A stretch of DNA of 33,785 nt from Flavobacteriales bacterium (lineage in GTDB: Bacteria; Bacteroidota; Bacteroidia; Flavobacteriales_D; Sanyastnellaceae), in the NCBI GenBank assembly GCA_030728235.1, contig JANRAA010000099.1, positions 1 to 33,785 of the forward strand. Reading direction: 5' to 3'. The position numbers and the translations under genes were made by a program. Each line of letters starts with the position of its first letter. The stretch's first letter is position 1. The notes under the pieces are model-generated. The model saw nothing but the letters and a program-made list of their open reading frames with translations, was not told the origin of the DNA and ran no database searches. Shown one piece after another: positions 16,681 through 33,785 of the stretch.

Positions 16681-16684
16681 GCAG

Positions 16685-16692: not shown

Positions 16693-16697
16693 TGGGC

Positions 16698-16725
16698 AAA
16701 AAAAAGCCGTGGCAAATCCACGGCT
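16698..16725 (-). terminator. Rho-independent terminator after the 16749-17576 gene
   Basis: Hairpin AGCCGTGG/CCACGGCT (16705-16725) with a 5-nt loop. On the minus strand it is followed by a T-run (A-run 16698-16705 on plus). Confidence 0.6.
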
Positions 16726-16748
16726 CTTTTTGTAAGTCTTTTTAAGTC

Positions 16749-17576: not shown

Positions 17577-17597
17577 ATTATTGATATTTAAGTGATT

Positions 17598-18473: not shown

Positions 18474-18500
18474 GCCCGAAAGTTAGGATTCTCGCAAGGA

Positions 18501-20663
18501 ATGACCAACTTAGCATCGATGTCGAAAAAGAAACAAAATACAAGAGATAGCCGCAAGCCGCGAAATTTGCGCGCTGAAGTACTAGACGTGTTCAAACAAC
18601 AACCCCATAAGCCACTGAATTACAAGCAGGTAGCGAGCAGTATGGGCGTGTATGATGATCAGGTTCGCACTTTGATTATGACTGTTATTGAGGAGTTGGC
18701 AGAAGCTGAAAAACTTGATTCAGCCGGACGTGGGAAGTATGTTTGGAATCAACCAGCTGATAAAGGAATTGAAGGAACAATAGAAATAACGAAGTTTGGA
18801 AGAGGGTTCGTAATTGTAGACGGACAAGAAAAAGATATTCCAATTGCGAAAGGAGACACGGGTACAGCGCTTTATGGCGACAGAGTAGAAGTTGTTTTTT
18901 CTTCGTTTAGAAAAAAGCGAACTGCTCGTGTTCAAAGGGTTATTAGCCGCGCGAAAGATCAATTTGTTTGCATTTTTGATCAAAAGCGCAATGTTACTTT
19001 CGGGTTACCGACAGACCAGCGCACGCACATCGATTTCTTTATTCCACCAGCATACGGCTTGGATGCCAAACATGGTGAAAAGGTTGTTGTTGAATTGCTA
19101 GGTTGGGACGACCCAAGAGAAAACCCCGTAGGAAAAGTTGTTGAGGTATTGGGAATGCCTGGCGACAACGACGTAGAAATGCATTCGATTATGATCGAAT
19201 ATGGTTTGCCGTATCACTTTCCATCTGAAGTGCTGTACGATGCCGATCGCATTCCGAAACAGATTACATCAAAAGACATTGCGTCAAGACGTGATTTCCG
19301 CGATGTGTTGACGTTCACCATTGACCCGTATGATGCCAAAGATTTTGACGATGCGCTTTCATTGAAGCAGTTGGAAAATGGCAACTGGGAGATTGGGGTG
19401 CACATTGCAGACGTATCGCATTACCTGCGACCAGGAACCATATTGGAAGAAGAAGCATTGAAAAGAGCAACCTCGGTATATCTGGTAGACAGAACCATCC
19501 CGATGTTGCCAGAGGTTTTGAGCAATGAGCTTTGTTCATTGCGGCCGAATGAAGACAAGCTGTGCTTTTCGGCCGTTTTTGAAATGAATAACGATGCGGT
19601 AGTATTGAATAGCTGGTTTGGAAGAACGGTAATTCACTCAGACCGCCGCTTCACCTATGAGGAAGCGCAAGAAATGATTGAGGGCGCGGAAGGAGATCAT
19701 AAGGAAGCAATTTTAACGCTTGATGACCTCGCGAAGAAACTGAGAGCAAAAAGGTTCAAAGCGGGCGGTATCGACTTCAACACCGAAGAGGTGAAGTTCA
19801 AACTGGATGAAATGGGTAAACCAGTTGGTGTTTTCATAAAACGAATGAAAGATGCCAACAAACTCATTGAAGACTTCATGCTGCTGGCAAACGTGAAAGT
19901 CGCAGAACGTGTCGGACGTCCGCCAGTGGGAAAACCAAGCATGTTTGTTTATCGTATTCACGACCTTCCTGACATTGAAAAATTAAAAAACCTCAGAGAA
20001 TTTGCTGGCCGATTCGGATATGAAATGCCGAAGCCGAACAAAGAGAATGCTGAGTCGTCGATTCGTGAATTGGTATCGAAAATTGAAGGCACTCCGGAGC
20101 AAGATGTAATTAAGAACATGGCCATTCGAAGCATGGCCAAAGCCGAATATAGCACGCACAACATAGGTCACTACGGTTTGGCGTTTGATTTTTATACCCA
20201 CTTCACCTCTCCAATTCGAAGATATCCAGATGTAATGGTTCATCGACTATTGCAGCATTACCTCGATGGAGGAGCAAGTTTGGGAGCAGAGGAATACGAT
20301 AAGAAATGCCGACATTCTTCAGAAAGGGAAAAGAAAGCTGCAGAGGCTGAGCGTGCTTCTATCAAGTACAAACAAGTAGAGTTCTTGATGACGCGCATTG
20401 GGGAAACGTTCAAAGGTATTTTATCAGGTGTTACTGCACGCGGTCTGTACGTTGAGATCATAGAAAATAAATGCGAAGGAATGGTAAGCTTGGATAGCCT
20501 GTACGACGATGATTACTACTACGATGAAGCCAAACTTTGTCTGCGTGGCAGAAGCACAGGAAAAGAGTATCATTTTGGAGATGAGATCGTTGTGACGGTT
20601 TCAGGAGCAAACCTTCAAAAGCGTCAATTGGACTTTAAAATAGCAGATGTTTATTCGGTGTGA
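18501..20663 (+). CDS. rnr: Ribonuclease R
   Basis: 720 aa with the RNB catalytic segment TIDPYDAKDFDDALS, HYGLAFDFYTHFTSPIRRYPD and a C-terminal S1 domain. An alternative start lies at 18519 (MSKKKQ). Confidence 0.95.
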   Translation: MTNLASMSKKKQNTRDSRKPRNLRAEVLDVFKQQPHKPLNYKQVASSMGVYDDQVRTLIMTVIEELAEAEKLDSAGRGKYVWNQPADKGIEGTIEITKFGRGFVIVDGQEKDIPIAKGDTGTALYGDRVEVVFSSFRKKRTARVQRVISRAKDQFVCIFDQKRNVTFGLPTDQRTHIDFFIPPAYGLDAKHGEKVVVELLGWDDPRENPVGKVVEVLGMPGDNDVEMHSIMIEYGLPYHFPSEVLYDADRIPKQITSKDIASRRDFRDVLTFTIDPYDAKDFDDALSLKQLENGNWEIGVHIADVSHYLRPGTILEEEALKRATSVYLVDRTIPMLPEVLSNELCSLRPNEDKLCFSAVFEMNNDAVVLNSWFGRTVIHSDRRFTYEEAQEMIEGAEGDHKEAILTLDDLAKKLRAKRFKAGGIDFNTEEVKFKLDEMGKPVGVFIKRMKDANKLIEDFMLLANVKVAERVGRPPVGKPSMFVYRIHDLPDIEKLKNLREFAGRFGYEMPKPNKENAESSIRELVSKIEGTPEQDVIKNMAIRSMAKAEYSTHNIGHYGLAFDFYTHFTSPIRRYPDVMVHRLLQHYLDGGASLGAEEYDKKCRHSSEREKKAAEAERASIKYKQVEFLMTRIGETFKGILSGVTARGLYVEIIENKCEGMVSLDSLYDDDYYYDEAKLCLRGRSTGKEYHFGDEIVVTVSGANLQKRQLDFKIADVYSV

Positions 20664-20712
20664 ACCGGATTAATACTTAAATTCGGTAATAAGAAATCTT
20701 AATCAATGCTTT

Positions 20713-22176
20713 ATGAAACGAATTTTATTATCCCTTTTTATTGTCTTAACTACATTGGCGAGCCAAGCGCAATTGCCAAGTGGGGTGTTAGCACCAAACT
20801 TTACGACTACTGATCTTGATGGAAACACATACGAGTTGTACGACTTGCTTTCGCAAGGATATACAGTTGTAATGGATATTTCTGCTACATGGTGCGGACC
20901 ATGTTGGTCATACCATACAGGTCAGTACAATGGATCTAACGGCGAAGGCGCCTTGCATGCTTTGCACAATGAGCACGGCATTGATGCTGGAGGCAACGTG
21001 TTTGTAATCTACATAGAAGGTGATGCACAAACTACACTTGCTGATTTGAACGGCACAGGGGCAGCAACACAAGGTGACTGGGTAGCTGGCACGCCATATC
21101 CAATTGCTGATGATGCGGCAGTAGCCGACTTGTATGAGATTGGATATTTCCCAACCATCTACACGATCTGTCCGAATGGAATTGTTTACGAAACGGGTCA
21201 ACTTACAGTTGAAGACCATTGGGCATTTATTGAAGACCTCGATTGTCAGACAGTTTCTTCAAATGACGCAATCATCATCGACTACGTAGGCGTAGATTTT
21301 ACTTGCGATATCGTAGATGTAGAAGTTGAGTTTGCAAACATCGGTTTGGAAGACATTACAGCGTTGTCGTTTACTGTTACGGGTGTGAACCCGGAGTTGT
21401 CTTACGACTGGTCGGGTGTATTGAGCACGTTTGAATCGACTACAATCAACCTTGGAACAACAAGTGTTGTTTCTGGACAAGAAGTTGTAATTTCAATTGT
21501 AACGCTGGATGATAATGCTTCGAACAACATGACTTCTGTTGCGCTTTCAGCTACTGAATCGACAACTCACATACACTTTAGCATGTTGACCGACGAATAC
21601 CCTGGCGATTACAGAATCACCATTTTTGACGACAACAACAACGCGGTTGCATCTGGTGGCCCATGGGCTGATTTTGATGTTCAATTGGATCCGATGCAGA
21701 TTGATGAAGATTACTATTTGCCTGCAACAGGATGTTACAGCGTTGTGATTTACGACGATTTCGGTGATGGTTTGTATTCAGGATATGCATCAGCCTATGG
21801 TGTGGAGGCGAACGGAGTTTCAATGGCTAACATCGTAAACGTTGCTTTGGGTGTTCCTTTTGAAACATTCAGCGGAGCTACAAGTGTTTCAGAAGTAGTA
21901 TCTGTAGCTGAAACGAATTTTGTTTCGGATTTCGTTGCTTACCCAAACCCAACAGACAACATGTTGAATGTTCGCTTCACTTCATTGAATGGAGGAAAGT
22001 ACGCTGTTGTTGTTATGAATACTATGGGTCAGCGTGTAGCTGAATACGCTTTGGGCACCCTTTCAACAGGGGTTCAACAGACTTCACTTGATCTTTCGAA
22101 CCTTTCTTCAGGAGTTTATATGCTTCGCTTGTCTTCAGAACAAGGCGAAACGACTATGCCTGTAATCGTTCGTTAA
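20713..22176 (+). CDS. T9SS-secreted protein with N-terminal thioredoxin-like domain (WCGPC)
   Basis: Signal peptide, then a TlpA/thioredoxin-like region with ISATWCGPCW. This is followed by a CARDB-like middle region, a DxFGDG module, and the type A CTD (FVAYPNPTDNMLNVRF...GVYMLRL...PVIVR). Confidence 0.8.
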   Translation: MKRILLSLFIVLTTLASQAQLPSGVLAPNFTTTDLDGNTYELYDLLSQGYTVVMDISATWCGPCWSYHTGQYNGSNGEGALHALHNEHGIDAGGNVFVIYIEGDAQTTLADLNGTGAATQGDWVAGTPYPIADDAAVADLYEIGYFPTIYTICPNGIVYETGQLTVEDHWAFIEDLDCQTVSSNDAIIIDYVGVDFTCDIVDVEVEFANIGLEDITALSFTVTGVNPELSYDWSGVLSTFESTTINLGTTSVVSGQEVVISIVTLDDNASNNMTSVALSATESTTHIHFSMLTDEYPGDYRITIFDDNNNAVASGGPWADFDVQLDPMQIDEDYYLPATGCYSVVIYDDFGDGLYSGYASAYGVEANGVSMANIVNVALGVPFETFSGATSVSEVVSVAETNFVSDFVAYPNPTDNMLNVRFTSLNGGKYAVVVMNTMGQRVAEYALGTLSTGVQQTSLDLSNLSSGVYMLRLSSEQGETTMPVIVR

Positions 22177-22196
22177 TAGAAAAGACATTTAAAAAA

Positions 22197-22228
22197 GAGG
22201 CGGTCTAAATCAGACCGCCTCTTTTTTT
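22197..22228. terminator. Bidirectional rho-independent terminator
   Basis: Hairpin GAGGCGGTCT/AGACCGCCTC with loop AAATC. An A6 run lies upstream and a T7 run downstream, between convergent genes. Confidence 0.7.
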
Positions 22229-22238
22229 ATTGAGTTTT

Positions 22239-23885
<1,647 letters not shown>

Positions 23886-23900
23886 CTAAGCTGGAGTACG

Positions 23901-23908
23901 CAAATGTA
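23901..23908 (-). promoter_or_regulatory. -7 box TACATTTG (minus strand) upstream of the ABC-F gene
   Basis: Exact TAnnTTTG, 55 nt upstream of the GTG at 23846. Confidence 0.3.
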
Positions 23909-23923
23909 TTGTGCTACAACTAC

Positions 23924-24706
23924 TTATTTCTTCAATCCTTCTGCAGCCATCTTCAACTTGTTCAGTCGTTGCTGTTCTTTTTCTACAACAGATTTTTGAG
24001 TCTCTTGATCCTTTATATTCTTTTCTATTTCTCCTTCGAGGTTAGAAACATCGGTTTTAGCTTTTTCGATATCAGCTTTCAATTGCTCAATTTTCGCAAG
24101 AGCATCTGTAATTTCTTTTTCAGCCTTGGCCATGTCTTCAGTTCGCTGCTCTTTTGATTTCACAAGTCCTTCACCTTCTTTCACTGCTTTGGCCATGTTC
24201 TTTTCTTCTTTCGAGAAGTTTTTCTCTTGATCAGAGATTACATCTTGGTACAAACCATTGTAGTGCTCTTTTGCAAACGCCTTTAATAGCGATTCCATAC
24301 GATCAGCTGCTGAGCTATTGAAGTTAGAGTCGAGCGCTTTCCCGCCAAGATCAACCACAACATCTGCTGTTACCATCCCATCCTTTTCGTCGAAAAGAAG
24401 AATTAGAGTGACAGTTTCATTTATAACATCAGACATTGTTACACCCAACGCCTCTTGATTTCCCTTGTTTTTTTTGAAGTCGGCCTTGTAACGTGAAGAG
24501 AAGTATTTCACCAAATCTTTTTCTACATCACTGCTTTTGCCATGAACTTTAAGACTGAACGCATTGAAAGATGACTTTTGAACCTTCACATCACGTTCTT
24601 GAATTTGAATAGCGGGAGCTGTTCCGAGCGATTCGATCAATTCGTCTTGAGAATGCAGGTTGACGCAGAATAAGATGCTGGCGATAATGAATATAGACTT
24701 CAACAT
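23924..24706 (-). CDS. Secreted protein with C-terminal coiled coil (hypothetical)
   Basis: The start at MLKSIFIIASILFCVNLHSQ (ATG at 24706) gives a signal peptide. The C-terminal roughly 90 aa are K/E-rich heptad-like (AKIEQLKADIEKAKTDVSNLEGEIEKNIKD). Confidence 0.65.
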   Translation of the reverse strand: MLKSIFIIASILFCVNLHSQDELIESLGTAPAIQIQERDVKVQKSSFNAFSLKVHGKSSDVEKDLVKYFSSRYKADFKKNKGNQEALGVTMSDVINETVTLILLFDEKDGMVTADVVVDLGGKALDSNFNSSAADRMESLLKAFAKEHYNGLYQDVISDQEKNFSKEEKNMAKAVKEGEGLVKSKEQRTEDMAKAEKEITDALAKIEQLKADIEKAKTDVSNLEGEIEKNIKDQETQKSVVEKEQQRLNKLKMAAEGLKK

Positions 24707-24819
24707 GGTGTTGGTTTTTTTGGTTGTTGTGAAATTAGAGATTTCTATTGACTTGATTCCGGTTATTCTTCGCATCTACAAAGTTTTAAGCCCTGTTAGC
24801 AAAGACGGATGGTGGAATC

Positions 24820-27816
24820 GTGATTTTTAGACGTCGAATGCAGACCTTTGGTCACATGTTGCAGAATGGAGAACAGCCAGAAGAAAAAATCGCTCTATTA
24901 CCGGGGTTCGTCAAAGTTGTTTTAATTGAAAAATTAGGTGATTATCGCTGGCTAGTTGAGGCCGAACAGCAATCAATACTCGAATTATCGAAGACGTTGG
25001 ATTGTGACATTCTCAATGTTGGCGACACCATTGGGTTGTTACGTCCAGCAAGAATGGTTGGTGAGAACATCACCTTCAAGTGCGATTTATGGGTTTATGA
25101 GCCTGATTATCTGGTTGATGTATCTGCCTTAGCAGAGTGTTTTCACCAGTTTTCGGGGACTTCTTTGCAGGTGTCTTCATTGTATTTTTTAAATCGATAT
25201 CGAAAAAAGGAATGGTCGACGCCATTGTTTACTGGAAACCTCGCTAACTTTTTTCTCGACGCCATTTTAACCATAGACACCCCGCAGTTCAGCGCATTGT
25301 TTAAAGAGACATTCTCTTTTTTCCCACTCGAATACATGCATCTTTTTCCCGATGACTCGTCGTTGATATCATTCCGAAACAGTATTGCGAAGAGGCATTT
25401 TATGAATTTAATTCGGGTTGTTTCGGTTGAGTTTCCAGTTTTGAATCCACCGCTCAACGCGGATAAAACCATGCTCGAGCCATCGTTTGTATCGCCTGAG
25501 TTAGGTTTGCAAGGACGATTGGATGCTCTTTCTTTGGGAGATGGCGCGTGTACAATTGTTGAATTGAAATCGGGTAAATCACCGTGGCCGCCTGCCGACC
25601 CAACGGCCATTGGAGAAAACCATGCTTTTCAGTCGCATATGTACCGCATGATTGTTAACCAAGTGTTGGGCATCGTTGAAGACAAAACCAAAGTCTACGT
25701 CCTCTATTCAGCAGCCGAGATGGGAAGCAATTTAAGGAGGGTGAATAGCACCAAAACCACATCAGCCAGGGTTTTGAATGTAAGGAACAGCATAGTAAGT
25801 GATGAGAAAAGAACCGCTTTTCCTGATAGCGCTACCAGTCTTTGGAACACCATGTTGGACTGGGGAAGGCTGCGGCTTCAGGATCTCAAGTTTCCCGTTT
25901 TTTTCTCTGAAAAGTTCGATTTCCACCTATCGAAAATGCGATCAACCGACGTTCAGCGGAGGGCCTATTTGCTTGCTTTCTCAGAGTATATTTCAAAAGA
26001 ACAATGGCTGGCGAAGATGGGGAATGAGCGGGGGCGTTCTGGAGCGAGGGGGTTGTGGACAGATGATGAGGCTACCGCATCAACTTTTTTGGGCCCAGCC
26101 CGAATCATTGAGAATAAAATTGCGACCGTTGAGCAAACCTTGCGATTCAAAATCGATCAGGTTGACGATCAAATTTATGATTTCAGGGCGGGCGATTTAT
26201 GTGTTTTATTTCCTGAACATGAGGGTGTATTCAACGCCGGACGTGTTCAAATAACCAAAGGTGTACTCCGCAACGAGCCAGATGAAAGCGGCGAGTTTGA
26301 GGTTTACTTTCGCCACCCACAAAGGGTAAGTGGTTATTTTGATCAAGAAAAGCTTTGGACAGTTCGGCACGACCATTTGGATGTTGTGCACCACGCCATG
26401 CATCGCGAATTGTTTGCCTTTTGCACCGATGAGTGTGTGGATGTTTCAGGATTGTTGACCCCAGCACCCATTGCAGAAACCTCAGTGCAAGGGGAGTGGA
26501 TTTCTGATGTCGACCACCCCAATATGGAAAGTCGTAAATCGCTGAATAAGTTGATTTCTCTAGCCATTGCGGCACCAAGACAGTTCTTGCTCATTGGTCC
26601 ACCTGGAACGGGTAAGACATCCATGTTTCTAAAGTATTACATCCGCGCAGACCGAAAGACAAAAAGCAGCAACATGCTCATTTTGGCTTACACCAATCGC
26701 GCTGTTGATGAGATTTGTGCAGTTTTGACAGACTTAAGTGAAGTTGGTGAAGATCGATACTATCGTGTTGGAAGCAGAAACACATGCGACCAAAGGTACC
26801 ATGCAAACCTATTGGTGGAAATCGCCGCCACGGCAGAAAACCGGGCCAGTTTAAAAGCAGATTTAGCGAAGAGGAATGTAGTGGTTTGCACTGTTGCCAC
26901 AGCCATTACGAGAAGTGAGTTACTTGACCCTAAAAACTTCAGTACCGTAATTGTTGATGAAGCATCGCAGGTATTGGAACCTATGCTCGTGAACGTTTTG
27001 GGAAGGGTTAAGAAGTTCATTCTGATAGGTGATGACAAGCAACTGCCGGCAGTTTCTTTGCAGTCGCAAACCAGCGCGAGGATTGAACATGAGGCAATTC
27101 GAGCCATAGGCATGGAGCGGACAACGAATTCCTTGTTTGAACGGCTATTATCGGTCAGTAAACCAGAGAATAGAGGCACACTGATTCATCAAGGGCGGAT
27201 GCATCCGCTTTTAGCGAATTTTATAAGTGAGAAGTGGTACAATGGTGTTTTGGTTTCAGCCGAAAAACCGCACCAAAAGGAACCAACTAAGATTCTTGAG
27301 CTGCCTGAGCATTTGAGAGATCGATTGATGTTTTATGAAGTTGCCCCAGAGGGAGGGGTAAACATGAAATCGAACGAGACGGAAGCCAAAGCCGTGGTAG
27401 AGCTCATTAACGAGCTCATTTTAGCAGGAGTAGAAGAAAGTAAAATAGGAGTTGTTGTGCCTTTTCGAAATCAAGCAGCACTTATTCGCAAGAAGCTCGG
27501 CAGCATTGCAACGAATGCGCTTGTTGTAGACACTGTTGAGCGTTTTCAAGGCAGTCAGAGAGACCACATTTTGTTTTGCACCACCATTCAAAAACAAAGT
27601 GAATTGGATTTGTTGCGGGAGTTATCGGATGTACAAGGAGTAAGTGTAGATCGGAAGATGAATGTGGCATATACCAGGGCCCGTAAACAGTTCGTTCTTT
27701 TCGGCAATAGCGTTGCGTTAAATGGAGATGTCCATTACGCCGATTTATTGCGTTACATTGAAGAAGTAGGAAGAATTATTCCATGTTTCGAAATCAAATC
27801 AACGTCAGATTTATAA
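24820..27816 (+). CDS. Fused PD-(D/E)xK (RecB/Cas4/Dna2-type) nuclease and SF1B Upf1/Dna2-like helicase
   Basis: 998 aa. Nuclease motifs: E220, GRLD235, VE248-L-K250 and Q271-SHM-Y275. Helicase motifs: GPPGTGKT (593-600), ILAYTNRAVDE, VDEASQ (712-717), FILIGDDKQLPAV, HQGRMH, VDTVERFQGSQRDHILF and NVAYTRARKQFVLFG. The start is ambiguous (GTG 24820, ATG 24838 or ATG 24856). Confidence 0.9.
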   Translation: MIFRRRMQTFGHMLQNGEQPEEKIALLPGFVKVVLIEKLGDYRWLVEAEQQSILELSKTLDCDILNVGDTIGLLRPARMVGENITFKCDLWVYEPDYLVDVSALAECFHQFSGTSLQVSSLYFLNRYRKKEWSTPLFTGNLANFFLDAILTIDTPQFSALFKETFSFFPLEYMHLFPDDSSLISFRNSIAKRHFMNLIRVVSVEFPVLNPPLNADKTMLEPSFVSPELGLQGRLDALSLGDGACTIVELKSGKSPWPPADPTAIGENHAFQSHMYRMIVNQVLGIVEDKTKVYVLYSAAEMGSNLRRVNSTKTTSARVLNVRNSIVSDEKRTAFPDSATSLWNTMLDWGRLRLQDLKFPVFFSEKFDFHLSKMRSTDVQRRAYLLAFSEYISKEQWLAKMGNERGRSGARGLWTDDEATASTFLGPARIIENKIATVEQTLRFKIDQVDDQIYDFRAGDLCVLFPEHEGVFNAGRVQITKGVLRNEPDESGEFEVYFRHPQRVSGYFDQEKLWTVRHDHLDVVHHAMHRELFAFCTDECVDVSGLLTPAPIAETSVQGEWISDVDHPNMESRKSLNKLISLAIAAPRQFLLIGPPGTGKTSMFLKYYIRADRKTKSSNMLILAYTNRAVDEICAVLTDLSEVGEDRYYRVGSRNTCDQRYHANLLVEIAATAENRASLKADLAKRNVVVCTVATAITRSELLDPKNFSTVIVDEASQVLEPMLVNVLGRVKKFILIGDDKQLPAVSLQSQTSARIEHEAIRAIGMERTTNSLFERLLSVSKPENRGTLIHQGRMHPLLANFISEKWYNGVLVSAEKPHQKEPTKILELPEHLRDRLMFYEVAPEGGVNMKSNETEAKAVVELINELILAGVEESKIGVVVPFRNQAALIRKKLGSIATNALVVDTVERFQGSQRDHILFCTTIQKQSELDLLRELSDVQGVSVDRKMNVAYTRARKQFVLFGNSVALNGDVHYADLLRYIEEVGRIIPCFEIKSTSDL

Positions 27817-27834
27817 TTAACTTAAGGAATTCAT

Positions 27835-27842
27835 TACTTTTG
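27835..27842 (+). promoter_or_regulatory. -7 box TACTTTTG upstream of tRNA-Met
   Basis: Exact TAnnTTTG, 21 nt upstream of the mature tRNA 5' end. Confidence 0.4.
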
Positions 27843-27862
27843 CGCCGTTCAAATTTAGAACA

Positions 27863-27936
27863 GCGCCCATAGCTCAGTTGGTTAGAGCATCTGACTCATA
27901 ATCAGAGGGTCCTAGGTTCAAGCCCTAGTGGGCGCA
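27863..27936 (+). tRNA. tRNA with CAT anticodon (elongator Met, or Ile2 if lysidine-modified)
   Basis: Hand-folded cloverleaf. Acceptor GCGCCCA/TGGGCGC, D arm GCTC-AGTTGGTTA-GAGC, anticodon arm TCTGA-CTCATAA-TCAGA, T arm CTAGG-TTCAAGC-CCTAG, discriminator A. CCA is not encoded. Not an initiator (1:72 is paired, and there is no triple G-C in the anticodon stem). Confidence 0.9.
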
Positions 27937-27942
27937 CTATTT

Positions 27943-27970
27943 GGCCTGAGATTCGTTTCAGGCCTTTTTT
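27943..27970 (+). terminator. Rho-independent terminator between the two tRNA genes
   Basis: Hairpin GGCCTGA/TCAGGCC with an 8-nt loop, followed by T6. Confidence 0.6.
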
Positions 27971-27989
27971 ATCTTCATCAAGAAGATTT

Positions 27990-28061
27990 GGCTCTGTAGT
28001 TCAAGGGATAGAATAGAAGTTTCCTAAACTTTTGATTCGGGTTCGAGTCCCGGCGGAGCTA
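27990..28061 (+). tRNA. tRNA-Arg (CCT)
   Basis: Hand-folded. Acceptor GGCTCTG/CGGAGCT (with G-U pairs), U8, D arm GTTC-AAGGGATA-GAAT, anticodon arm GAAGT-TTCCTAA-ACTTT, T arm with loop TTCGAGT, discriminator A. CCA is not encoded. Confidence 0.85.
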
Positions 28062-28123
28062 CTGATTATTGCCTAACGGGCATAGTTTTTGTTTGCCAAA
28101 GTCAGAATTTTAAAACTCAAAAA

Positions 28124-28603
28124 ATGAAGAATTTCTCACCAAATCGAATTTTAGTCTTTTTTGCTTTGATGCTCGGATTGGGGCTATCAAACGTCTCAAA
28201 TGCCCAGCAAGGATATGAATTTACGTCGTTTACAGTTATTGAATCGATCATTCCAAACGGTTTAGGGCGTTCACGAATTATTCAGGCTACCGAAGCCCGA
28301 GATTACAAAGAGTTTACCTCTGTTCGCTCAGAAGAAGACAATGATCGCAACAAGTCTGACCGCGGCGACATACGCGTGAAGAACTTTGAAGAAACCAAAA
28401 TCTTGAACTTTTATAATCTTGGTGGCATTCGATTTCAGAATATCGCTGCAAATGATGCAGTGGTAAATAGCAAAGTGAATGCGATGTTCGAAGCTGGTTG
28501 GGAATTGGTAACCATAACGGCAGGAGTAGAATCGGACGCTGGAAAAGAAGATGGTGAAGGAATCTATATCACCCGCTTCTATTTCAAGCGCTTGAAACAG
28601 TAA
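28124..28603 (+). CDS. Small secreted hypothetical protein
   Basis: 159 aa with signal peptide MKNFSPNRILVFFALMLGLGLSNVSNAQ. The C-terminal GWELVTITAG...IYITRFYFKR is reminiscent of DUF4177-type folds (weak). Followed by a strong terminator. Confidence 0.65.
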   Translation: MKNFSPNRILVFFALMLGLGLSNVSNAQQGYEFTSFTVIESIIPNGLGRSRIIQATEARDYKEFTSVRSEEDNDRNKSDRGDIRVKNFEETKILNFYNLGGIRFQNIAANDAVVNSKVNAMFEAGWELVTITAGVESDAGKEDGEGIYITRFYFKRLKQ

Positions 28604-28609
28604 AGATTA

Positions 28610-29662
28610 TTACGAATTGAAGCCAGCACCAGAAGTGCTGGCTTTTTTTTGCTCGCTCTCGATTTGCTCTTTCAACATATCCACTTTCCGCATTTGTGCC
28701 TTGAAAAATTGATTTCTGATTTTCTCAGCCATACCACTTACTTGAATTGATTTCGAACGGAGGTTATCAAGCCATTCAGCATGTTGCGCATTGAACACCT
28801 CATTTCTTGTGCGGATCGTATTGAACGTGTTGTAACCGATAAAGGTAGTGCGGAGGCTCTCTGATGTTACATGGATTGAGTTACTGCCAATCATCAGGTC
28901 GCACAGGTAGAGGTTGAATGGAATTCCGCTAGAGGCGCCATTAAAAAGTATTTTTTGGCCAATTTCGGCCTGGCGTGAAACACGTTGAAGCAAAGATGAA
29001 ATGTCGTTGAGGACAGAAACAGCGCTTTCCGTTGATTGAAAGAATCCAGCTTCCCAATAGAATTTAACTTGTTGGAGAGTGCTCTCGATTGTTTCATTGG
29101 TCCATATTTCCGTTGACGATACCGTTGCATATCCATCGTACAAAGCGGGGAAGGTTTCGCTCATTCCTTCAGTGAAGTCACTCGAGAAATGGGAGGCATC
29201 ATATTCCGGTATGTTCATGATAGACTTCATCCAATAGAACATTTTGAACAATCCAAGGTGCTGGAAACCGAAATGGTAAAACATGGGTATGTCTTCAGCA
29301 GCGTAATATATATGCGCGCCTTCGTGACGCTTAATTTTCGCCAATTGACCAATCAACTGATCGAAATACATTTTGAAATGCTCAGTATTCCGCTCCAAGC
29401 GGGTGTATTGAAAGGTCACAACGTCTTGTACTTCATTGTTCAATGCTTCAAGCGGGATACTATAATGCACACAAATCTTTACTGTTTCATCGAGTGAAAA
29501 TGCCGTTTCACTGCGCAATCGTCGATATGCCCCGTCAATGCTTATTTCTAGCACTTCTGAGATGTCTTTGGCGAGATTAATTTGCCCAGGGATTTGTTTT
29601 CTCAATAACGAGATGAAATTCTCTTGATGAATGAGGCGACTTTTTATTTGCATAATATACAA
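28610..29662 (-). CDS. Helix-turn-helix protein with uncharacterised roughly 280-aa C-terminal domain
   Basis: 350 aa. The N-terminal LAKDISEVLEISIDGAYRRLRSETAFSLDETVKIC reads as an HTH. I recognise no motif in the remainder. Confidence 0.7.
   Translation of the reverse strand: MYIMQIKSRLIHQENFISLLRKQIPGQINLAKDISEVLEISIDGAYRRLRSETAFSLDETVKICVHYSIPLEALNNEVQDVVTFQYTRLERNTEHFKMYFDQLIGQLAKIKRHEGAHIYYAAEDIPMFYHFGFQHLGLFKMFYWMKSIMNIPEYDASHFSSDFTEGMSETFPALYDGYATVSSTEIWTNETIESTLQQVKFYWEAGFFQSTESAVSVLNDISSLLQRVSRQAEIGQKILFNGASSGIPFNLYLCDLMIGSNSIHVTSESLRTTFIGYNTFNTIRTRNEVFNAQHAEWLDNLRSKSIQVSGMAEKIRNQFFKAQMRKVDMLKEQIESEQKKASTSGAGFNS
28621..28650 (+). terminator. Rho-independent terminator of the 28124-28603 gene
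   Basis: 9-bp stem AGCCAGCAC/GTGCTGGCT with loop CAGAA, then T7. It lies within the last codons of the convergent minus-strand ORF. Confidence 0.7.
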
Positions 29663-29722
29663 GCGTGTAGATTATAAAGTTGCGAAAAATGCAAGTACGA
29701 TCCTTTGCTTATGCAATAAACG

Positions 29723-29730
29723 CAAAAATA
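29723..29730 (-). promoter_or_regulatory. -7 box TATTTTTG (minus strand) upstream of the HTH gene
   Basis: Exact TAnnTTTG, about 60 nt upstream of the ATG at 29662. Confidence 0.3.
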
Positions 29731-29855
29731 CTCTAAGTGGTTGTCAATTGGATGGCATATTTGCGTTTTATGACATTGGTGTTCGTTGGTGTTTGTGATA
29801 TCCGTAAAAGTGCTGTGTCAAACCACTTGATATTTGCCCAACAAAAATCACGAAA

Positions 29856-30980
29856 ATGAAAAACTCAATTTTATCAATCGCCGCTTTTGCCTTGTCACTT
29901 GTTTCATTTGGTTTGAGCGCACAGACTTCAAGACCTATAGTAGCTGTAGCAGATATTGATGTCAACGACACCTATGCCAATGGAGCAAATTATTCTATCG
30001 AAGACTTTGTGATGATAGAGATGTCGAAAATAGAAGGGATAGAATTGTTGGATCGATACGATATGGATTTTTTGGCGAAGCGCGACCAAATTGAAATCAA
30101 TGGCTGCTTCTCGAAAATCTGTTTGAAAGAGATTGGAAGAGCGCTCAATGTAGACAAAGTGCTTACTGGAAGTTTGCTTACAATTGGAGATAACATCGTT
30201 GTGAACTTCCGTCTATTGGATGTCGTTACAGGCAGCATTGAAAAGAACCACACGGTTGAATTTTTGAAGTTAAGCGCGGAAGTAAAGAACATGATTGGCA
30301 TCACGATTCAAGAAATGTTTGACCTGCCGGTTGATGAGGAGTTGAAGAAGAAGTTGAGTGTGAGAAACGACTATGAGGGATCTGTCAACAACCCATATAA
30401 ACTTCGTCTTCGTTCTGATGGTCCACGCATGGGATTTACAGTTTTTCAAGGAGAACTAGCTGACAGGCTATCAGAAAGCAAAGTGGATGGTGGCTTCGAG
30501 GCACACCCGATGATGTTTCAATTTGGTTACCAGTTCGAGAAGCAGTATTTGAATGAGGGGAATTTTCAAGCCTTGTTTGAGTTCATACCGATGATAACAG
30601 GTTTGGATCAGGGATTTGTTATACCGAGTATTACAATTATGAATGGCTTGAGGAACAACAAAAACGGATGGGAGTTTGCTTTCGGACCTACTTTTTCTGT
30701 CGTGCCAATGAGTAAAGGATATTATGATCAGGAAACAGATCAATGGACGCTAACAGCAGGTCTTGATTCTATACCTGTAGGTGTTTCAGAAATCCGTAGA
30801 ATGGATAGCAGAGGTGAAATGAAAATCCAACCAGGGTTTGTTTTTGCAGCGGGGAAAACGTTCAAATCAGGTAAACTAAATATCCCTGTAAATATGTACG
30901 TCATTCCAAACAACAAAGGACTTCGGTTTGGGCTGTCAATGGGATTCAATGCACGAGATCGATATGCCTATTCGCACTAA
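29856..30980 (+). CDS. Secreted protein with N-terminal TolB-N/CsgG/LpoB-like domain and C-terminal beta-rich domain (hypothetical)
   Basis: Signal peptide MKNSILSIAAFALSLVSFGLSAQ. Residues 25-160 follow the pattern (V)AVADIDV...LLDRYDMDFLAKRDQI...IGRALNVDKVLTGSL...VNFRLLDVVTGSI seen in CsgG/LpoB/TolB-N-like domains. The C-terminal half has alternating hydrophobic beta-strand patterns. Confidence 0.7.
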   Translation: MKNSILSIAAFALSLVSFGLSAQTSRPIVAVADIDVNDTYANGANYSIEDFVMIEMSKIEGIELLDRYDMDFLAKRDQIEINGCFSKICLKEIGRALNVDKVLTGSLLTIGDNIVVNFRLLDVVTGSIEKNHTVEFLKLSAEVKNMIGITIQEMFDLPVDEELKKKLSVRNDYEGSVNNPYKLRLRSDGPRMGFTVFQGELADRLSESKVDGGFEAHPMMFQFGYQFEKQYLNEGNFQALFEFIPMITGLDQGFVIPSITIMNGLRNNKNGWEFAFGPTFSVVPMSKGYYDQETDQWTLTAGLDSIPVGVSEIRRMDSRGEMKIQPGFVFAAGKTFKSGKLNIPVNMYVIPNNKGLRFGLSMGFNARDRYAYSH

Positions 30981-30998
30981 AGTCTAAAAAATAGAAAA

Positions 30999-31028
30999 AG
31001 CCGAATCCACTGCTGGATTCGGCTTTTT
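30999..31028. terminator. Bidirectional rho-independent terminator
   Basis: Hairpin AGCCGAATCCA/TGGATTCGGCT with loop CTGC. An A5 run lies upstream and a T4 run downstream, between convergent genes. Confidence 0.7.
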
Positions 31029-31043
31029 CATTTTTATCTCAGG

Positions 31044-33248
31044 TTATCTGAAGACCACGAAACGTCGAGACGTTTTGCCTTTTTCAGTCACCAAAGTGAT
31101 GAGGTAAGTTCCGGGCTCAAGAGTACTTACATCATAGCCTATATTTTGTTGACCCTCTGCTTGAATCATTGTCCTACGATCAATCAAGCGCCCTTGAATA
31201 TCAGTAACAACCATATCTACCTGCCCACTTTCAGCAAGCACGTAGTTCACGTTTAGCAGGTTGTCGGTTGGGTTCGGGTACAAGTTCAAACTTGAAACCG
31301 GCTCTGGTGAGCTAGTGAGAATAGGTTGTACTTCAGGTTCAGTTGTTCTTGCACCATTTAAGCAGCCAGTTATAACCATGTCATCCACATACAACTGATC
31401 ATCATCTGCAGAAGCATCGGCTCTCACACGGACACGTGTATTGGTGGTGAATGGACCAGGAATTACCAAGTCAACTTGGTAGTAAGTTCCGTTGTTAAAA
31501 CTGGTACCTGCAGCGTACGTCGCCTTTGTAACATAAGTCGACCCTCCATTGGTAGATAGCTGAACCCAGAAATCTTCGCCGTTCTCAAAACTTATGGTTT
31601 TAAATTTAAAGCTAACGGTGATTTCGTCGTAGTTCGAGAGGTTTTGACTCGTGGTCGACATAACAGAGGTGGAAGTATTGTCGCGTAAACGAATTGAGAA
31701 GTTTCCGCTGTAAGCATTGGCCGCGCTGTTTACACGAGCACAGTCGGTTCCACCATCCCTCCATATACCCCAGTTGGAATCAAATGAGTTTGAGTTGATG
31801 GTTACATAAGTGCATCCACCTGTGTTGCAGGGTGCGCAGCTCGAACCGCCGCAGTCAACACCTGTTTCGTCTCCATTTTGGATGCCGTCGGTGCATGTTG
31901 GTGCAGGCGGACCACCCAAACAGAAATTTGTGCTTTGACTGGTGGTAAATGACCCTCCGCTAGCCAGTGTGCCTGAAGGGCCTGTTAAGGTGTAGCTTCC
32001 GTTACCATACGAGCAGCACATTCCGTCGCCATATGCATCTGTGATGGTAAATGTGTAGCAACCATCGGTAATGCAAAGTGGAATTACCAATGTAGAGCCA
32101 TCAGCTTGACTGCCATATGTACCGCCGCTGGCTACGGTTGCATTGGAGGCATTTCTCAATGTCCAACTGGTTTCCTCAGGGTAGTTGTCGAAAGTAATTG
32201 AAAGTGATAGTGCGTTGTCGGAGCATCCACAAGCCGGACAAGAACCACCGCAGTCGATTCCTGTTTCAGTGCCGTTTTGAATGCCGTCGTTACATGTAGG
32301 TGCTGGTCCACCGCCGCCGCAGGCAGTTGAGTTTAGCAACGACGCCCGTGCACCCCCTGGTTCAAACAACGCGCGCATTCTAGTTTTTTGTCCAGCACTA
32401 AATAGGTTCATACACGCATCATCTGTGTAATCCATGTAATTCTGAACCATATCAGTTGAACTGCAAGAAACGTGTCCAAGCGGACAACCATAGTTTGGAG
32501 CATCAGAAGTTGGTGTATCCGTTACAAAATCGTCAACGGTGCATCCACCATCTCCCCAAATGTGGCGAAGGTTCAACCAGTGACCTACTTCGTGCGTAGC
32601 CGTTCTACCAAGATTGAATGGGGCTGTTGCAGTGCCAGTAGTTCCGAAGTATTGGTAATCGATAACAACACCATCGGTTGAAGATGCCCCACCCGGAAAT
32701 TGAGCATATCCGAGTATTCCTCCGCTAATATCGCACACCCAAAGGTTCATGTATTGCGATGAAGGCCAAGCATCTTTTCCGCCAGAGGAGTTAAACTTCA
32801 CTTGGTCATTGGTTCCAAAAGCTGTTGTGCTGGTTGATGTCCGTGTTATACCCGTTGTTGGAGCCCCATTTGGGTCTACCGTTGCAAGGCAAAACGACAC
32901 TTCAGCATCTGCTGCTTGCGCCCATACATTGTCGGCATCTGAGTTCAACCTTCTGAAGTCAGCGTTCAAAACATCTATTTGCGACATGATTTGTGCTGTG
33001 CTCACGTTTTCAGCAGCGGTGTTATACACTACGTGAACAACTACAGGGATATTGATAACCCCATTCACGGCGCGTATTCCAGAGGAAACAACCTCTTCTG
33101 TATGCCTTTCAATGGCTTCCAGTTTCGTATTGCGTTTGGGGTCATTTTGAAGTTGCATTTCCAGGTAATCCATGGAACCACAATTGCGCTGTGCTTGCGA
33201 AAAAATAGACACAAGAAGTAACGCAAAGAACAGTAGACGTGTCTTCAT
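31044..33248 (-). CDS. M43 (pappalysin-type) zinc metalloprotease, multidomain, T9SS type A cargo
   Basis: 734 aa with a signal peptide. Zinc motif HEVGHWLNLRH (nt 32562-32594) and Met-turn region NYMDY. Two Cys-rich CxDGIQNGxETGxDCGG motifs, a DAYGDG module and a MAM-like jelly roll. CTD LNLYPNPTDNLLNVNY...GTYLITL...RRFVVFR. Confidence 0.9.
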   Translation of the reverse strand: MKTRLLFFALLLVSIFSQAQRNCGSMDYLEMQLQNDPKRNTKLEAIERHTEEVVSSGIRAVNGVINIPVVVHVVYNTAAENVSTAQIMSQIDVLNADFRRLNSDADNVWAQAADAEVSFCLATVDPNGAPTTGITRTSTSTTAFGTNDQVKFNSSGGKDAWPSSQYMNLWVCDISGGILGYAQFPGGASSTDGVVIDYQYFGTTGTATAPFNLGRTATHEVGHWLNLRHIWGDGGCTVDDFVTDTPTSDAPNYGCPLGHVSCSSTDMVQNYMDYTDDACMNLFSAGQKTRMRALFEPGGARASLLNSTACGGGGPAPTCNDGIQNGTETGIDCGGSCPACGCSDNALSLSITFDNYPEETSWTLRNASNATVASGGTYGSQADGSTLVIPLCITDGCYTFTITDAYGDGMCCSYGNGSYTLTGPSGTLASGGSFTTSQSTNFCLGGPPAPTCTDGIQNGDETGVDCGGSSCAPCNTGGCTYVTINSNSFDSNWGIWRDGGTDCARVNSAANAYSGNFSIRLRDNTSTSVMSTTSQNLSNYDEITVSFKFKTISFENGEDFWVQLSTNGGSTYVTKATYAAGTSFNNGTYYQVDLVIPGPFTTNTRVRVRADASADDDQLYVDDMVITGCLNGARTTEPEVQPILTSSPEPVSSLNLYPNPTDNLLNVNYVLAESGQVDMVVTDIQGRLIDRRTMIQAEGQQNIGYDVSTLEPGTYLITLVTEKGKTSRRFVVFR

Positions 33249-33366
33249 ACAATAGAATATTTAGTTATAATAAAAGGTTTCATGCCGTTCGAATGTGCCC
33301 AAATGGGATTTCAAACGGCGCTTAGAAATTAGAAAATTTCAATAACCAAATAACAAAAAGGGAAAA

Positions 33367-33785
33367 TTAGTTTTCAGCCGACTTTCTCAGTGGAAGAGAG
33401 ACTCCAAAAACGTAGTTGTTTTGAAGAAAAAAGAAGTGTTGAGAGGCCTTGTCTGACGGGTCTGGAGAGGTTCTTACATCTGGCATGTTGATGAATCCGC
33501 CCTTCACTTCACTCTGAATAAAGAAGTAATCGAAGAAAGTTATGGTTATTCCGCCCATTGCCGCGGTGCCCCAACCTGCGAGATGAAACTCATCGTTCCG
33601 TTCTTTTTCCATCAGTTTCGAGTTCGTCTTCGGCAACATAATACCAGCCCCGACACCAAACACGGAAGCGATTTTGACTTTTTCCTCGAAATATGTAAAC
33701 CATGTGTCGTGACGGCGTATTTCGGCATTGATATAATTCAGGCCATCGGTGTGCTCATAAGTCAAAAACTGTGGTATGAGGGTTA
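33367..33785 (-). CDS. Partial CDS (C-terminal part; continues past the right edge): hypothetical beta-rich, possibly outer-membrane protein
   Basis: The reading frame stays open from 33765 to the window end (upstream codons T-L-I-P-Q-F precede the track start, which is a TTG). Alternating aromatic/hydrophobic strands (GGITITFFDYFFIQSEVKGGF, NNYVFGVSLPL). Confidence 0.5.
   Translation of the reverse strand, partial: TLIPQFLTYEHTDGLNYINAEIRRHDTWFTYFEEKVKIASVFGVGAGIMLPKTNSKLMEKERNDEFHLAGWGTAAMGGITITFFDYFFIQSEVKGGFINMPDVRTSPDPSDKASQHFFFLQNNYVFGVSLPLRKSAEN

What the first reader, a model, noticed from the sequence alone, without database searches (positions are those of the whole stretch)
24820..27816. 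Single-polypeptide RecB-type nuclease plus SF1B helicase (Dna2/Nhi-like) next to a tRNA pair: candidate defence or novel repair enzyme
Seen in sequence: one 998-aa ORF carries a complete PD-(D/E)xK signature (E220, D235, E248-x-K250, Q271xxxY275) about 340 residues upstream of a full SF1B helicase motif set (GPPGTGKT, VDEASQ, GDDKQLPAV, HQGRMH, ERFQGSQRD, YTRARK). Established knowledge: this nuclease-then-Upf1-like-helicase order is that of eukaryotic/archaeal Dna2. It is also that of the staphylococcal single-gene anti-phage enzyme Nhi (nuclease-helicase immunity). Inference: the gene stands alone, transcribed divergently from a secreted coiled-coil gene. It sits immediately upstream of two tRNA genes, after which gene content turns hypothetical. 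That is a typical position for variable or defence cargo. No partner methylase, integrase or toxin is present, so if it is a system it is a one-gene system.
Basis: partly seen in the sequence, partly recalled or inferred. Interest (0 to 1): 0.8.

Follow-up and report, generated by a model that had tools for sequence, protein, structure and literature searches.

The report
Iron-free bacterial Dna2-like nuclease-helicase
This gene encodes a bacterial look-alike of the eukaryotic DNA-repair enzyme Dna2 that lacks Dna2's iron-sulfur cluster; it looks like an inherited chromosomal gene found in many Bacteroidota, not an anti-phage defence gene.

Summary
The true start is probably ATG 24856, giving 986 aa.

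An AlphaFold model (pLDDT 84.5) matches mouse Dna2 over its full length (Foldseek E=1.5e-40, TM 0.63-0.66). The match covers the OB-like domain, nuclease, beta-barrel and helicase.

The defence, Nhi-like and variable-cargo reading is not supported.
- Nhi is a 606-aa DUF2075/Dda-like protein. This protein has no DUF2075 hit.
- No PADLOC model matches beyond the helicase core.
- No true plasmid or phage record carries a full-length copy.
- The window holds only housekeeping genes.
- The ABC-F, coiled-coil gene, this gene and tRNA-Met order persists down to 49% protein identity.

The family has about 750 clusters at 50% identity. It occurs in Bacteroidales, Marinilabiliales, Flavobacteriales, Cytophagales and Saprospiraceae. 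All catalytic residues are 100% conserved in 266 members, and dN/dS is 0.09.

It differs from Dna2, Bad, AddB and Cas4 in lacking the four-cysteine Fe-S "iron staple". The most likely function is a chromosomal 5'-to-3' ssDNA motor-nuclease for genome maintenance. No experimental characterisation was found.

The parts
24856..27816 (+). Probable CDS (986 aa) of the Dna2-like nuclease-helicase. The longest ORF starts at GTG 24820 (998 aa). Residue numbers in this report count from 24820.
   Evidence: start reassigned; dN/dS 0.09 against L001
24825..24855 (+). 31-nt non-coding element TTTTAGACGTCGAATGCAGACCTTTGGTCAC directly before the ATG. 27 of 31 bases are invariant in six lineages down to 49% protein identity, while the flanks diverge. 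Probably a promoter or operator.
   Evidence: No Rfam hit, no stable RNA fold, and no match to the two published Bacteroidetes SOS boxes
24886..25098 (+). N-terminal beta-rich OB-like domain (residues 23-93)
   Evidence: AF2 model secondary structure; lies inside the full-length Foldseek alignment to mouse Dna2
25102..26019 (+). RecB-family PD-(D/E)xK nuclease domain with helical inserts (residues about 95-400). The catalytic motifs E220, D235, E248/K250 and Q271/Y275 lie at 25477-25644. There is one conserved cysteine (C107) and no CxxCx5C triad.
26086..26370 (+). Beta-barrel domain between nuclease and helicase (residues 423-517), as in Dna2 and Upf1
   Evidence: the family profile aligns to mouse DNA2 residues 421-1042
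26524..27789 (+). Upf1-like SF1B helicase core, domains 1A and 2A (residues 569-990). Walker A is K599 and Walker B is D713/E714.
27863..27937 (+). tRNA-Met(CAT) with a G1-C72 pair, so not an initiator type. Its position just downstream of the gene is conserved in relatives.
27990..28062 (+). tRNA-Arg(CCT), the second tRNA of the pair
23924..24775 (-). Divergent gene for a secreted or membrane-anchored coiled-coil protein. It is a conserved neighbour in four lineages. A functional link is unproven.

Best explanation
The gene encodes a single-polypeptide, Dna2-type enzyme: OB-like domain, RecB-family nuclease, beta-barrel, then Upf1-like SF1B helicase. It belongs to a large Bacteroidota family that appears to be inherited vertically on the chromosome.

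By analogy with Dna2 and Bad, a free 5' single-stranded DNA end would thread through the nuclease domain to reach the helicase. The helicase would then translocate 5'-to-3' using ATP (K599, D713/E714). The nuclease (E220, D235, E248, K250, with Q271/Y275) would cut the ssDNA. The result would be processing of 5' flaps, resected ends or stalled-fork intermediates as part of genome maintenance.

Unlike Dna2, Bad, AddB and Cas4, the nuclease domain has no four-cysteine Fe-S cluster.

Shown here: domain composition, fold match, motif conservation, purifying selection, housekeeping context and synteny. Inferred: DNA substrate, polarity, the threading mechanism and the physiological role.
For: - Fold: AF2 model pLDDT 84.5, pTM 0.85. 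Foldseek top hits are mouse Dna2 5eax, 5eaw and 5ean, E=1.5e-40, TM 0.66/0.63 over about 1100 aligned columns. All other hits cover the helicase only.
- Sequence profile: the family profile hits DNA2 best (E=1.1e-49), over DNA2 residues 421-1042.
- Nuclease: its motifs align with the AdnAB RecB-type nuclease, including the catalytic Asp that is Ala in some of the deposited chains. PDDEXK_1 is above threshold in members, and a few members give a weak PF08696 'Dna2' hit.
- Conservation: in 266 full-length members E220, D235, E248, K250, Q271, Y275, K599, D713 and E714 are 100% conserved.
- Selection: dN/dS is 0.09 overall and 0.048 in the nuclease domain.
- Family size: 933 representatives of 50%-identity clusters match the N-terminal 560 aa at E<=1e-3, and 749 at E<=1e-10.
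- Named members: Dysgonomonas, Petrimonas, Bacteroides, Phocaeicola, Prevotella, Marinilabilia, Epilithonimonas, and MAGs of Flavobacteriales, Cryomorphaceae, Cytophagales, Thermoflexibacter and Saprospiraceae.
- Synteny: conserved at 97, 92, 65 and 49% identity. RNase R is a neighbour in more distant Flavobacteriales-type clades.
- Context: neighbours everywhere are housekeeping genes.
- Composition: G+C is like the surroundings.
Against: - No biochemical or genetic data exist for any member that I could find.
- The Fe-S cluster that defines Dna2-class 'iron-staple' nucleases is absent.
- The helicase core is almost as similar to the RNA helicases IGHMBP2 and Upf1 as to DNA2, so the substrate is not settled.
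- Presence in every Bacteroidota genome was not shown. No Flavobacteriaceae sensu stricto appeared among named hits.
- A subset of members carries a C-terminal methyltransferase-like domain. Bad sits next to a Type III-like methyltransferase (PMC7430649). This leaves room for a restriction-like role in some lineages.
Confidence: 0.68

Rival explanations
1. A one-gene anti-phage defence enzyme, Nhi-like or Mokosh-like in action: a nuclease-helicase that recognises and degrades replicating phage DNA.
For: The order nuclease then SF1B helicase is the same as in Nhi. The best PADLOC hits are the defence helicases MkoA and MkoC. Bad, the characterised bacterial Dna2-like enzyme, neighbours a methyltransferase. 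Some family members carry a fused methyltransferase-like domain. One full-length relative lies on an IMG/VR contig (L014; its context was not examined).
Against: - There is no DUF2075 (PF09848) hit, and size and helicase subtype differ from Nhi.
- PADLOC hits cover only the helicase core. The N-terminal 560 aa hit only Cas4-type nuclease models, weakly.
- No defence, integrase or mobile-element genes occur in the window or in the eleven homologue contexts whose neighbours were inspected.
- The locus is collinear in relatives down to 49% identity, and the tRNA linkage is conserved.
- GenBank phages hold no full-length copy. The three plasmid hits are Bacteroidales records: two labelled plasmids, of which the one inspected is chromosomal in content, and a 1.77-Mb Prevotella replicon.
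- dN/dS of 0.09 shows no diversifying signal.
Confidence: 0.07
2. An RNA-directed enzyme: a Upf1/IGHMBP2-like 5'-to-3' RNA helicase with an attached nuclease, working in RNA or tRNA surveillance or decay, possibly together with RNase R.
For: The helicase core scores nearly as well against IGHMBP2 and Upf1 (E=3e-43 and 4e-41) as against DNA2. RNase R lies 4 kb upstream in the window, directly upstream on the same strand in L012, and adjacent in L011. A tRNA gene lies directly downstream on the same strand in two separate clades: tRNA-Met, and tRNA-Gln in Bacteroidales. Long variants carry a SAM-methyltransferase-like domain of unknown specificity.
Against: Only Dna2 matches over the full length, including the nuclease and OB-like domains. 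The aligned nuclease relatives (AdnAB, Cas4, PDDEXK_1) are DNA nucleases. Gene adjacency within one phylum can be plain inherited synteny. The tRNA-Met is followed by a terminator-like hairpin, and a sigma-70-like promoter match lies at the end of the ORF.
Confidence: 0.1
3. A helicase whose nuclease domain is vestigial and serves only as a structural or DNA-binding module.
For: The Fe-S staple that stabilises related nuclease domains is missing. PDDEXK_1 is below threshold in this protein.
Against: Every catalytic residue of motifs I-IV is 100% conserved in 266 members. The nuclease domain has the lowest dN/dS of all the domains, 0.048.
Confidence: 0.05

Closest known systems
Eukaryotic/archaeal Dna2 (mouse Dna2, PDB 5eax/5eaw/5ean)
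   Same: Same domain order and overall fold: OB-like domain, RecB-type nuclease, beta-barrel, Upf1-like SF1B helicase 1A/2A. TM 0.63-0.66 over the full length. It is also the best profile hit in the PDB. The nuclease motifs I-IV and all the helicase motifs examined are present.
   Different: No four-cysteine Fe-S cluster. About 17% sequence identity. Pfam PF08696 is not matched by this protein. It is bacterial, and named members are almost all Bacteroidota. There is no known RPA-type partner. Orthology was not tested by phylogeny.
Bad, bacterial DNA2-like helicase-nuclease of Geobacillus stearothermophilus (PMC7430649)
   Same: [quoted passage not shown] Bad is a 5'-to-3' ssDNA translocase, helicase and ssDNA endonuclease, which is the activity expected here.
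   Different: Bad contains an Fe-S cluster held by four cysteines, is 1245 aa, is described as rare and sporadic, and lies next to a Type III-like methyltransferase. This family has no Fe-S signature, is common in one phylum and sits among housekeeping genes.
Nhi (SERP2475), staphylococcal nuclease-helicase immunity
   Same: One polypeptide with an N-terminal PD-(D/E)xK nuclease followed by an SF1 helicase.
   Different: Nhi is 606 aa, with DUF2075 (PF09848), a Dda-like helicase, an HsdR-like nuclease and a glyoxalase-like C-terminus. It is found in under 1% of genomes, often on plasmids, and 72% of homologues have a defence neighbour within 20 genes. None of this applies here.
RecB-family nuclease domains of AdnAB, AddB and Cas4
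   Same: The catalytic core motifs E...GRxD...(D/E)xK...QxxxY align residue for residue with AdnAB. Cas4 models hit weakly.
   Different: Those nucleases are joined to UvrD-like SF1A motors or stand alone. AddB and Cas4 carry the Fe-S staple. Here the nuclease is fused N-terminally to a Upf1-like SF1B motor and has no Fe-S cluster.
MkoA/MkoC (Mokosh) and other Upf1-like defence helicases
   Same: They share the AAA_11/AAA_12 helicase core (E=3.9e-43 to MkoA).
   Different: The match covers only model positions 746-1099 of 1112. There is no PLD nuclease, and the context and N-terminal domains differ.

Membership tests
Dna2-type nuclease-helicase | N-terminal RecB-family PD-(D/E)xK nuclease with motifs I-IV including QxxxY | tested here: met
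   E220, D235, E248/K250 and Q271/Y275 are invariant in 266 members. They align to the AdnAB nuclease. PDDEXK_1 is above the gathering cut-off in members.
Dna2-type nuclease-helicase | C-terminal Upf1-like SF1B helicase (AAA_11/AAA_12) with intact ATPase motifs | tested here: met
   Pfam E=3e-26 and 8.5e-33. The PDB profile search gives DNA2 as best hit at E=1.1e-49. K599, D713 and E714 are invariant.
Dna2-type nuclease-helicase | Overall architecture and fold: OB domain, nuclease, beta-barrel, helicase 1A/2A | tested here: met
   AF2 model pLDDT 84.5. Foldseek against 5eax gives E=1.5e-40 and TM 0.66/0.63 over about 1100 columns.
Dna2-type nuclease-helicase | 4Fe-4S 'iron staple' held by four cysteines (C...CxxCx5C) | tested here: not met
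   Only C107 is conserved in the nuclease domain (89% of 266 members). No Cys-rich column lies between residues 217 and 461.
Dna2-type nuclease-helicase | Pfam PF08696 (Dna2 N-terminal region) above threshold | tested here: not met
   No hit in the window protein. P0127 gives only E=0.0077, below the cut-off. P0070, P0071 and P0344 have precomputed hits.
Dna2-type nuclease-helicase | 5'-to-3' ssDNA translocation and ssDNA endonuclease activity on 5' flaps or ends | not testable with these tools
   Needs biochemistry.
Dna2-type nuclease-helicase | Orthology with eukaryotic or archaeal Dna2 in a phylogeny of SF1B helicases | not tested
Nhi (nuclease-helicase immunity) | DUF2075 (PF09848) Dda-like helicase core | tested here: not met
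   PF09848 is absent from the Pfam hits at E<=1.
Nhi (nuclease-helicase immunity) | Rare, horizontally spread, plasmid-borne or next to defence genes | tested here: not met
   Synteny is conserved to 49% identity. Neighbours are housekeeping genes. There are no true plasmid or phage copies.
Nhi (nuclease-helicase immunity) | Anti-phage phenotype that depends on the nuclease and helicase residues | not testable with these tools
   Needs phage challenge experiments.
Bad (bacterial DNA2-like, Geobacillus) | Fe-S cluster-containing nuclease domain | tested here: not met
   against PMC7430649
Bad (bacterial DNA2-like, Geobacillus) | Neighbouring Type III-like DNA methyltransferase | tested here: not met
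   There is no DNA methyltransferase next to the gene in the window or in the eleven contexts whose neighbours were inspected. A subset of members has a fused C-terminal methyltransferase-like domain of unknown specificity.
Mokosh MkoA/MkoC | Full-length match including the PLD nuclease or other MkoA-specific regions | tested here: not met
   The PADLOC match is limited to helicase residues 663-982, which correspond to model positions 746-1099.

The most novel reading that the evidence does not exclude
Bacteroidota may carry, as an ancestral chromosomal gene, an Fe-S-free counterpart of eukaryotic Dna2 that is their main 5'-flap or 5'-end resection motor-nuclease. That would be a phylum-level Dna2 pathway in bacteria. 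Bacterial Dna2-like enzymes have so far been described as rare and sporadic. A more radical reading is also not excluded: the recurring tRNA and RNase R neighbours and the methyltransferase fusions could mean the enzyme acts on RNA or on RNA-DNA hybrids.
Probability: 0.3. Interest if true: 0.65.

Novelty: new variant of a known kind. Interest (0 to 1): 0.42.

Why it matters
Dna2 is central to eukaryotic Okazaki-fragment processing and DNA end resection. Its bacterial relatives have been described as rare, sporadic and dependent on an Fe-S cluster (Bad, PMC7430649). That earlier search used the Fe-S signature, so it would have missed this family.

If this enzyme works like Dna2, three things follow.
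- It is a natural test of whether the "iron staple" is dispensable for this fold.
- It is a simpler model for motor-nuclease coupling, because no Fe-S cluster has to be assembled.
- It could be a missing piece of DNA repair in gut and marine Bacteroidota, whose recombination pathways are poorly mapped.

The case also shows that a nuclease-helicase next to a tRNA should not be called a defence gene without checking synteny.

Tried and rejected
- **Nhi membership:** rejected after reading the Nhi paper and finding no DUF2075 hit.
- **PADLOC:** run on the full protein, on the N-terminal 560 aa and on a distant member. Only helicase-core hits (MkoA, MkoC, DpdJ, GajB) and weak Cas4 hits appeared. 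Eight other window ORFs gave no specific defence hit; only the ABC-F gave generic ATPase matches.
- **NCBIfam:** PLuB_AAA, IGHMBP2, ProA and Hhe all scored far below their cut-offs and covered the helicase only.
- **SOS regulation:** the upstream element matches neither published Bacteroidetes LexA motif, GGA-N5-TCC or CTAA-N5-TTAG. That paper's helicase mentions, as read, name only UvrD and RecQ.
- **The 31-nt upstream element as an RNA:** no Rfam match and a folding z-score of +0.47.
- **Other copies of the element:** none in the window. Two metagenome scans returned nothing. That collection evidently lacks even the JGI sample that holds an exact copy (L044).
- **Genome-collection scan:** run with the single protein, it found only one close relative, L001.
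- **IMG/VR scan:** one full-length relative, L014, among generic helicase hits.
- **C-terminal methyltransferase-like domain of the long variants:** no PDB sequence relative.
- **Literature searches:** three searches for a characterised Bacteroidota Dna2-like enzyme found none.
Full report
**1. The observation**

The ORF at 24820-27816 (+) exists and is 998 codons from GTG.
- Nuclease: E220, GxQGRLD235, E248-L-K250 and Q271xxxY275.
- Helicase: GPPGTGKT 593-600, VDEASQ 712-717, GDDKQLPAV 737-745, HQGRMH 790-795, ERFQGSQRD 907-915 and YTRARK 951-956.

Pfam finds AAA_11 and AAA_12, the Upf1-like SF1B core, at E=3e-26 and 8.5e-33. PDDEXK_1 is below threshold in this protein (E=0.0019). tRNA-Met(CAT) at 27863-27937 and tRNA-Arg(CCT) at 27990-28062 follow the gene. 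A divergent gene for a coiled-coil protein with a signal-peptide-like N-terminus precedes it.

One correction concerns the start codon. The first 12 codons of the GTG ORF overlap a 31-nt stretch (24825-24855). In relatives L002 and L003 the same stretch carries in-frame TAG and TGA stops, so it is non-coding there. The real start is therefore most likely ATG 24856, giving 986 aa. That matches homologue P0002 in length and start.

**2. Is the nuclease real?**

Alignment of 23 homologues (A1), and then of 266 full-length members, gives a clear answer. E220, G229, G232, R233, D235, E248, K250, Q271, Y275, Y296, R322 and N323 are invariant. So are Walker A K599 and Walker B D713/E714.

A profile of the nuclease region alone (A2) aligns with the solved AdnAB RecB-type nuclease domain (E about 1e-3). 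The alignment holds motif for motif. It includes the catalytic Asp that is replaced by Ala in some of the deposited AdnAB chains.

Family members P0076 and P0123 pass the PDDEXK_1 gathering score. Cas4 models hit weakly. Between the window and the 92%-identical orthologue in L001, dN/dS is 0.09 overall and 0.048 in the nuclease domain. The fusion claim stands, and both activities are under strong purifying selection.

**3. What fold is it?**

An AlphaFold2 model built from A1 has mean pLDDT 84.5 and pTM 0.85. It shows four parts:
- a beta-rich OB-like domain (residues 23-93);
- the nuclease with helical inserts (about 95-400);
- a beta-barrel (423-517);
- a two-lobed helicase (569-990).

Foldseek against the PDB puts the three mouse Dna2 structures first (5eax, E=1.5e-40; TM 0.66 normalised by the query and 0.63 by the target, over about 1100 aligned columns). 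IGHMBP2, Upf1, Sen1 and Aquarius follow, and they cover only the helicase half.

The sequence profile also ranks DNA2 first (E=1.1e-49). That match runs over DNA2 residues 421-1042, which reaches beyond the helicase core. So this is a Dna2-type architecture, not merely a nuclease placed near a helicase.

**4. What is different?**

Dna2, Bad, AddB and Cas4 share a 4Fe-4S "iron staple" held by one cysteine before the nuclease core and a CxxCx5C triad after it (PMC7430649). In this family only C107 is conserved (89% of 266 members). No cysteine-rich column lies between residues 217 and 461. The Fe-S cluster is therefore absent across the whole family.

The window's own clade (P0001-P0004, 951-999 aa) also lacks an N-terminal helical domain of about 120 aa. 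Most members (1100-1160 aa) have that domain.

**5. Defence cargo or chromosomal gene?**

- *Nhi.* It is a 606-aa protein with DUF2075, a Dda-like helicase and an HsdR-like nuclease. It occurs in under 1% of genomes, often on plasmids and beside defence genes. This protein has no DUF2075 hit. PADLOC matches only the helicase core of MkoA and MkoC.
- *The window.* It encodes lipoyl transferase, PGI, a class II aminoacyl-tRNA synthetase, an M23 peptidase, RidA, RNase R, ABC-F and type IX secretion cargo. There is no integrase, methylase or toxin. G+C is uniform.
- *Close relatives.* A Cryomorphaceae MAG (L001) is collinear with window 14671-33783 at 87-89% nucleotide identity. The downstream "hypothetical" genes are included in that collinear block.
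- *More distant relatives.* At 97, 65 and 49% protein identity the ABC-F gene, the coiled-coil gene (both on the minus strand) and then this gene on the plus strand keep the same order. At 49% the tRNA-Met and tRNA-Arg pair is still there, with one glycosyltransferase gene inserted.
- *The 42%-identity Flavobacteriales clade.* It keeps the divergent coiled-coil homologue (E=6e-31) and a tRNA-Met 35 nt downstream. Related clades keep RNase R next door.
- *Bacteroidales.* The gene sits after diacylglycerol kinase or after tatA-tatC, again among housekeeping genes.
- *Mobile elements.* GenBank phages hold no full-length copy. The three "plasmid" hits are Bacteroidales records, and the one inspected (B. 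finegoldii "plasmid 23") carries dxs, murF/alr and tatAC, so it is really chromosome. One IMG/VR contig has a full-length relative, whose context I did not examine.

The tRNA adjacency is thus a conserved feature of the locus, not a sign of an insertion site.

**6. Distribution**

The N-terminal 560 aa (no helicase) finds 933 representatives of 50%-identity clusters at E<=1e-3 and 749 at E<=1e-10. Nearly all of the 150 listed are 1090-1170 aa.

Named members come from Dysgonomonas, Petrimonas, Bacteroides, Phocaeicola, Prevotella, Marinilabilia and Epilithonimonas. They also come from MAGs of Flavobacteriales, Cryomorphaceae, Cytophagales, Thermoflexibacter and Saprospiraceae, with a single Phycisphaerales MAG.

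JGI already labels many members "DNA replication ATP-dependent helicase Dna2". NCBI mostly labels them "AAA domain-containing protein". I could not show that the gene is present in every Bacteroidota genome.

**7. Mechanism**

The best reading (confidence about 0.68) is a chromosomal genome-maintenance enzyme that works like Dna2 and Bad. A 5' ssDNA end passes through the nuclease domain to the SF1B motor. The motor moves 5'-to-3' on ATP hydrolysis, and the nuclease cuts the strand. The architecture, fold, motifs, selection and context are shown here. The DNA substrate, the polarity, the threading and the physiological role are inferred.

Rivals:
- a one-gene defence enzyme (0.07);
- an RNA-directed enzyme, suggested by the near-equal similarity to Upf1 and IGHMBP2 and by the recurring RNase R and tRNA neighbours (0.10);
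- a helicase with a vestigial nuclease (0.05), which the perfect motif conservation contradicts.

**8. Novelty and score**

This is a new variant of a known kind: a Dna2-like nuclease-helicase that lacks the defining Fe-S cluster and is widespread in one bacterial phylum. The only characterised bacterial relative, Bad, was described as rare and sporadic, and it was found through an Fe-S signature that this family lacks. I found no experimental work on this family.

As an uncharacterised, conserved, Fe-S-free bacterial Dna2 analogue it still deserves moderate interest (0.42).

Noticed in passing
window 24825-24855 (+); also L001 10006-10036, L002 9949-9979, L003 2254-2284, L044 and L045: A 31-nt non-coding element, TTTTAGACGTCGAATGCAGACCTTTGGTCAC, lies just upstream of the start codon. 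27 of 31 bases are invariant in six lineages down to 49% protein identity, so it is far more conserved than the coding sequence or its own flanks. It contains the palindromes GACGTC and GACC-TTT-GGTC and a -7-box-like ACCTTTG. It is probably an operator overlapping the promoter. It has no Rfam match, no stable fold and no match to the known Bacteroidetes SOS boxes.
   Followed up: partly
window 27863-27937; L003 6131-6207; L004 11497-11571; L011 3724-3800; L008 11717-11788; L013 8412-8483: A tRNA gene lies directly downstream on the same strand in two separate clades of the family: tRNA-Met(CAT) in the Flavobacteriales-type clades and tRNA-Gln(CTG) in a Bacteroidales clade. This may be inherited synteny or a sign of co-transcription or a functional link. 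It was not resolved.
   Followed up: partly
P0127 (Marinilabilia salmonicolor WP_114436798, 1455 aa), P0123, P0309 (Epilithonimonas vandammei), P0303, P0333: C-terminal residues about 1150 to the end: A subset of family members (about 1395-1505 aa) carries an extra C-terminal domain of about 300 aa. It has a class I SAM-methyltransferase motif I (IIDFGAGPATAG) and weak Pfam hits (Methyltransf_31 E=2.6e-4, PF13649). It has no PDB sequence relative and its substrate is unknown. This recalls Bad, which neighbours a methyltransferase.
   Followed up: partly
window 23924-24775 (-); L002 9051-9833; L003 1367-2146; L004 7129-7836: The divergent gene for a secreted or membrane-anchored coiled-coil protein (probable start M24, signal-peptide-like MLKSIFIIASILFCVNLHS) is co-conserved with the nuclease-helicase. 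Its homologue next to P0009, whose enzyme is 42% identical, shares 26% identity (E=6e-31). It has no Pfam family beyond weak coiled-coil hits. A functional link seems unlikely for a secreted protein, but the shared divergent control region is conserved.
   Followed up: partly
alignment A1 columns 1-200; window clade P0001-P0004: The window's clade (951-999 aa) lacks the conserved N-terminal helical domain of about 120 aa (consensus ...QFPxLFSRLVFxAQK...EWxLQxxRV) that the 1100-1160-aa majority of the family has. The function of that domain is unknown.
   Followed up: no
window 18501-20663 (+); L012 2580-4727; L011 4107-6206: RNase R (RNB domain) stays close to the Dna2-like gene in several Flavobacteriales-type lineages. 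It is directly upstream on the same strand in L012.
   Followed up: no
window 28124-30980: Three ORFs downstream of the tRNA pair (159, 350 and 374 aa) have no Pfam or PADLOC hit. They are conserved and collinear in the Cryomorphaceae MAG L001.
   Followed up: partly
NZ_OY725925.1 (L010), OY725991.1: The PLSDB records labelled Bacteroides finegoldii 'plasmid 23' and Phocaeicola massiliensis plasmid are doubtful. The inspected stretch of the first carries core chromosomal genes (dxs, murF/alr, tatAC), so it looks like a mislabelled chromosome fragment. The second was not inspected.
   Followed up: partly
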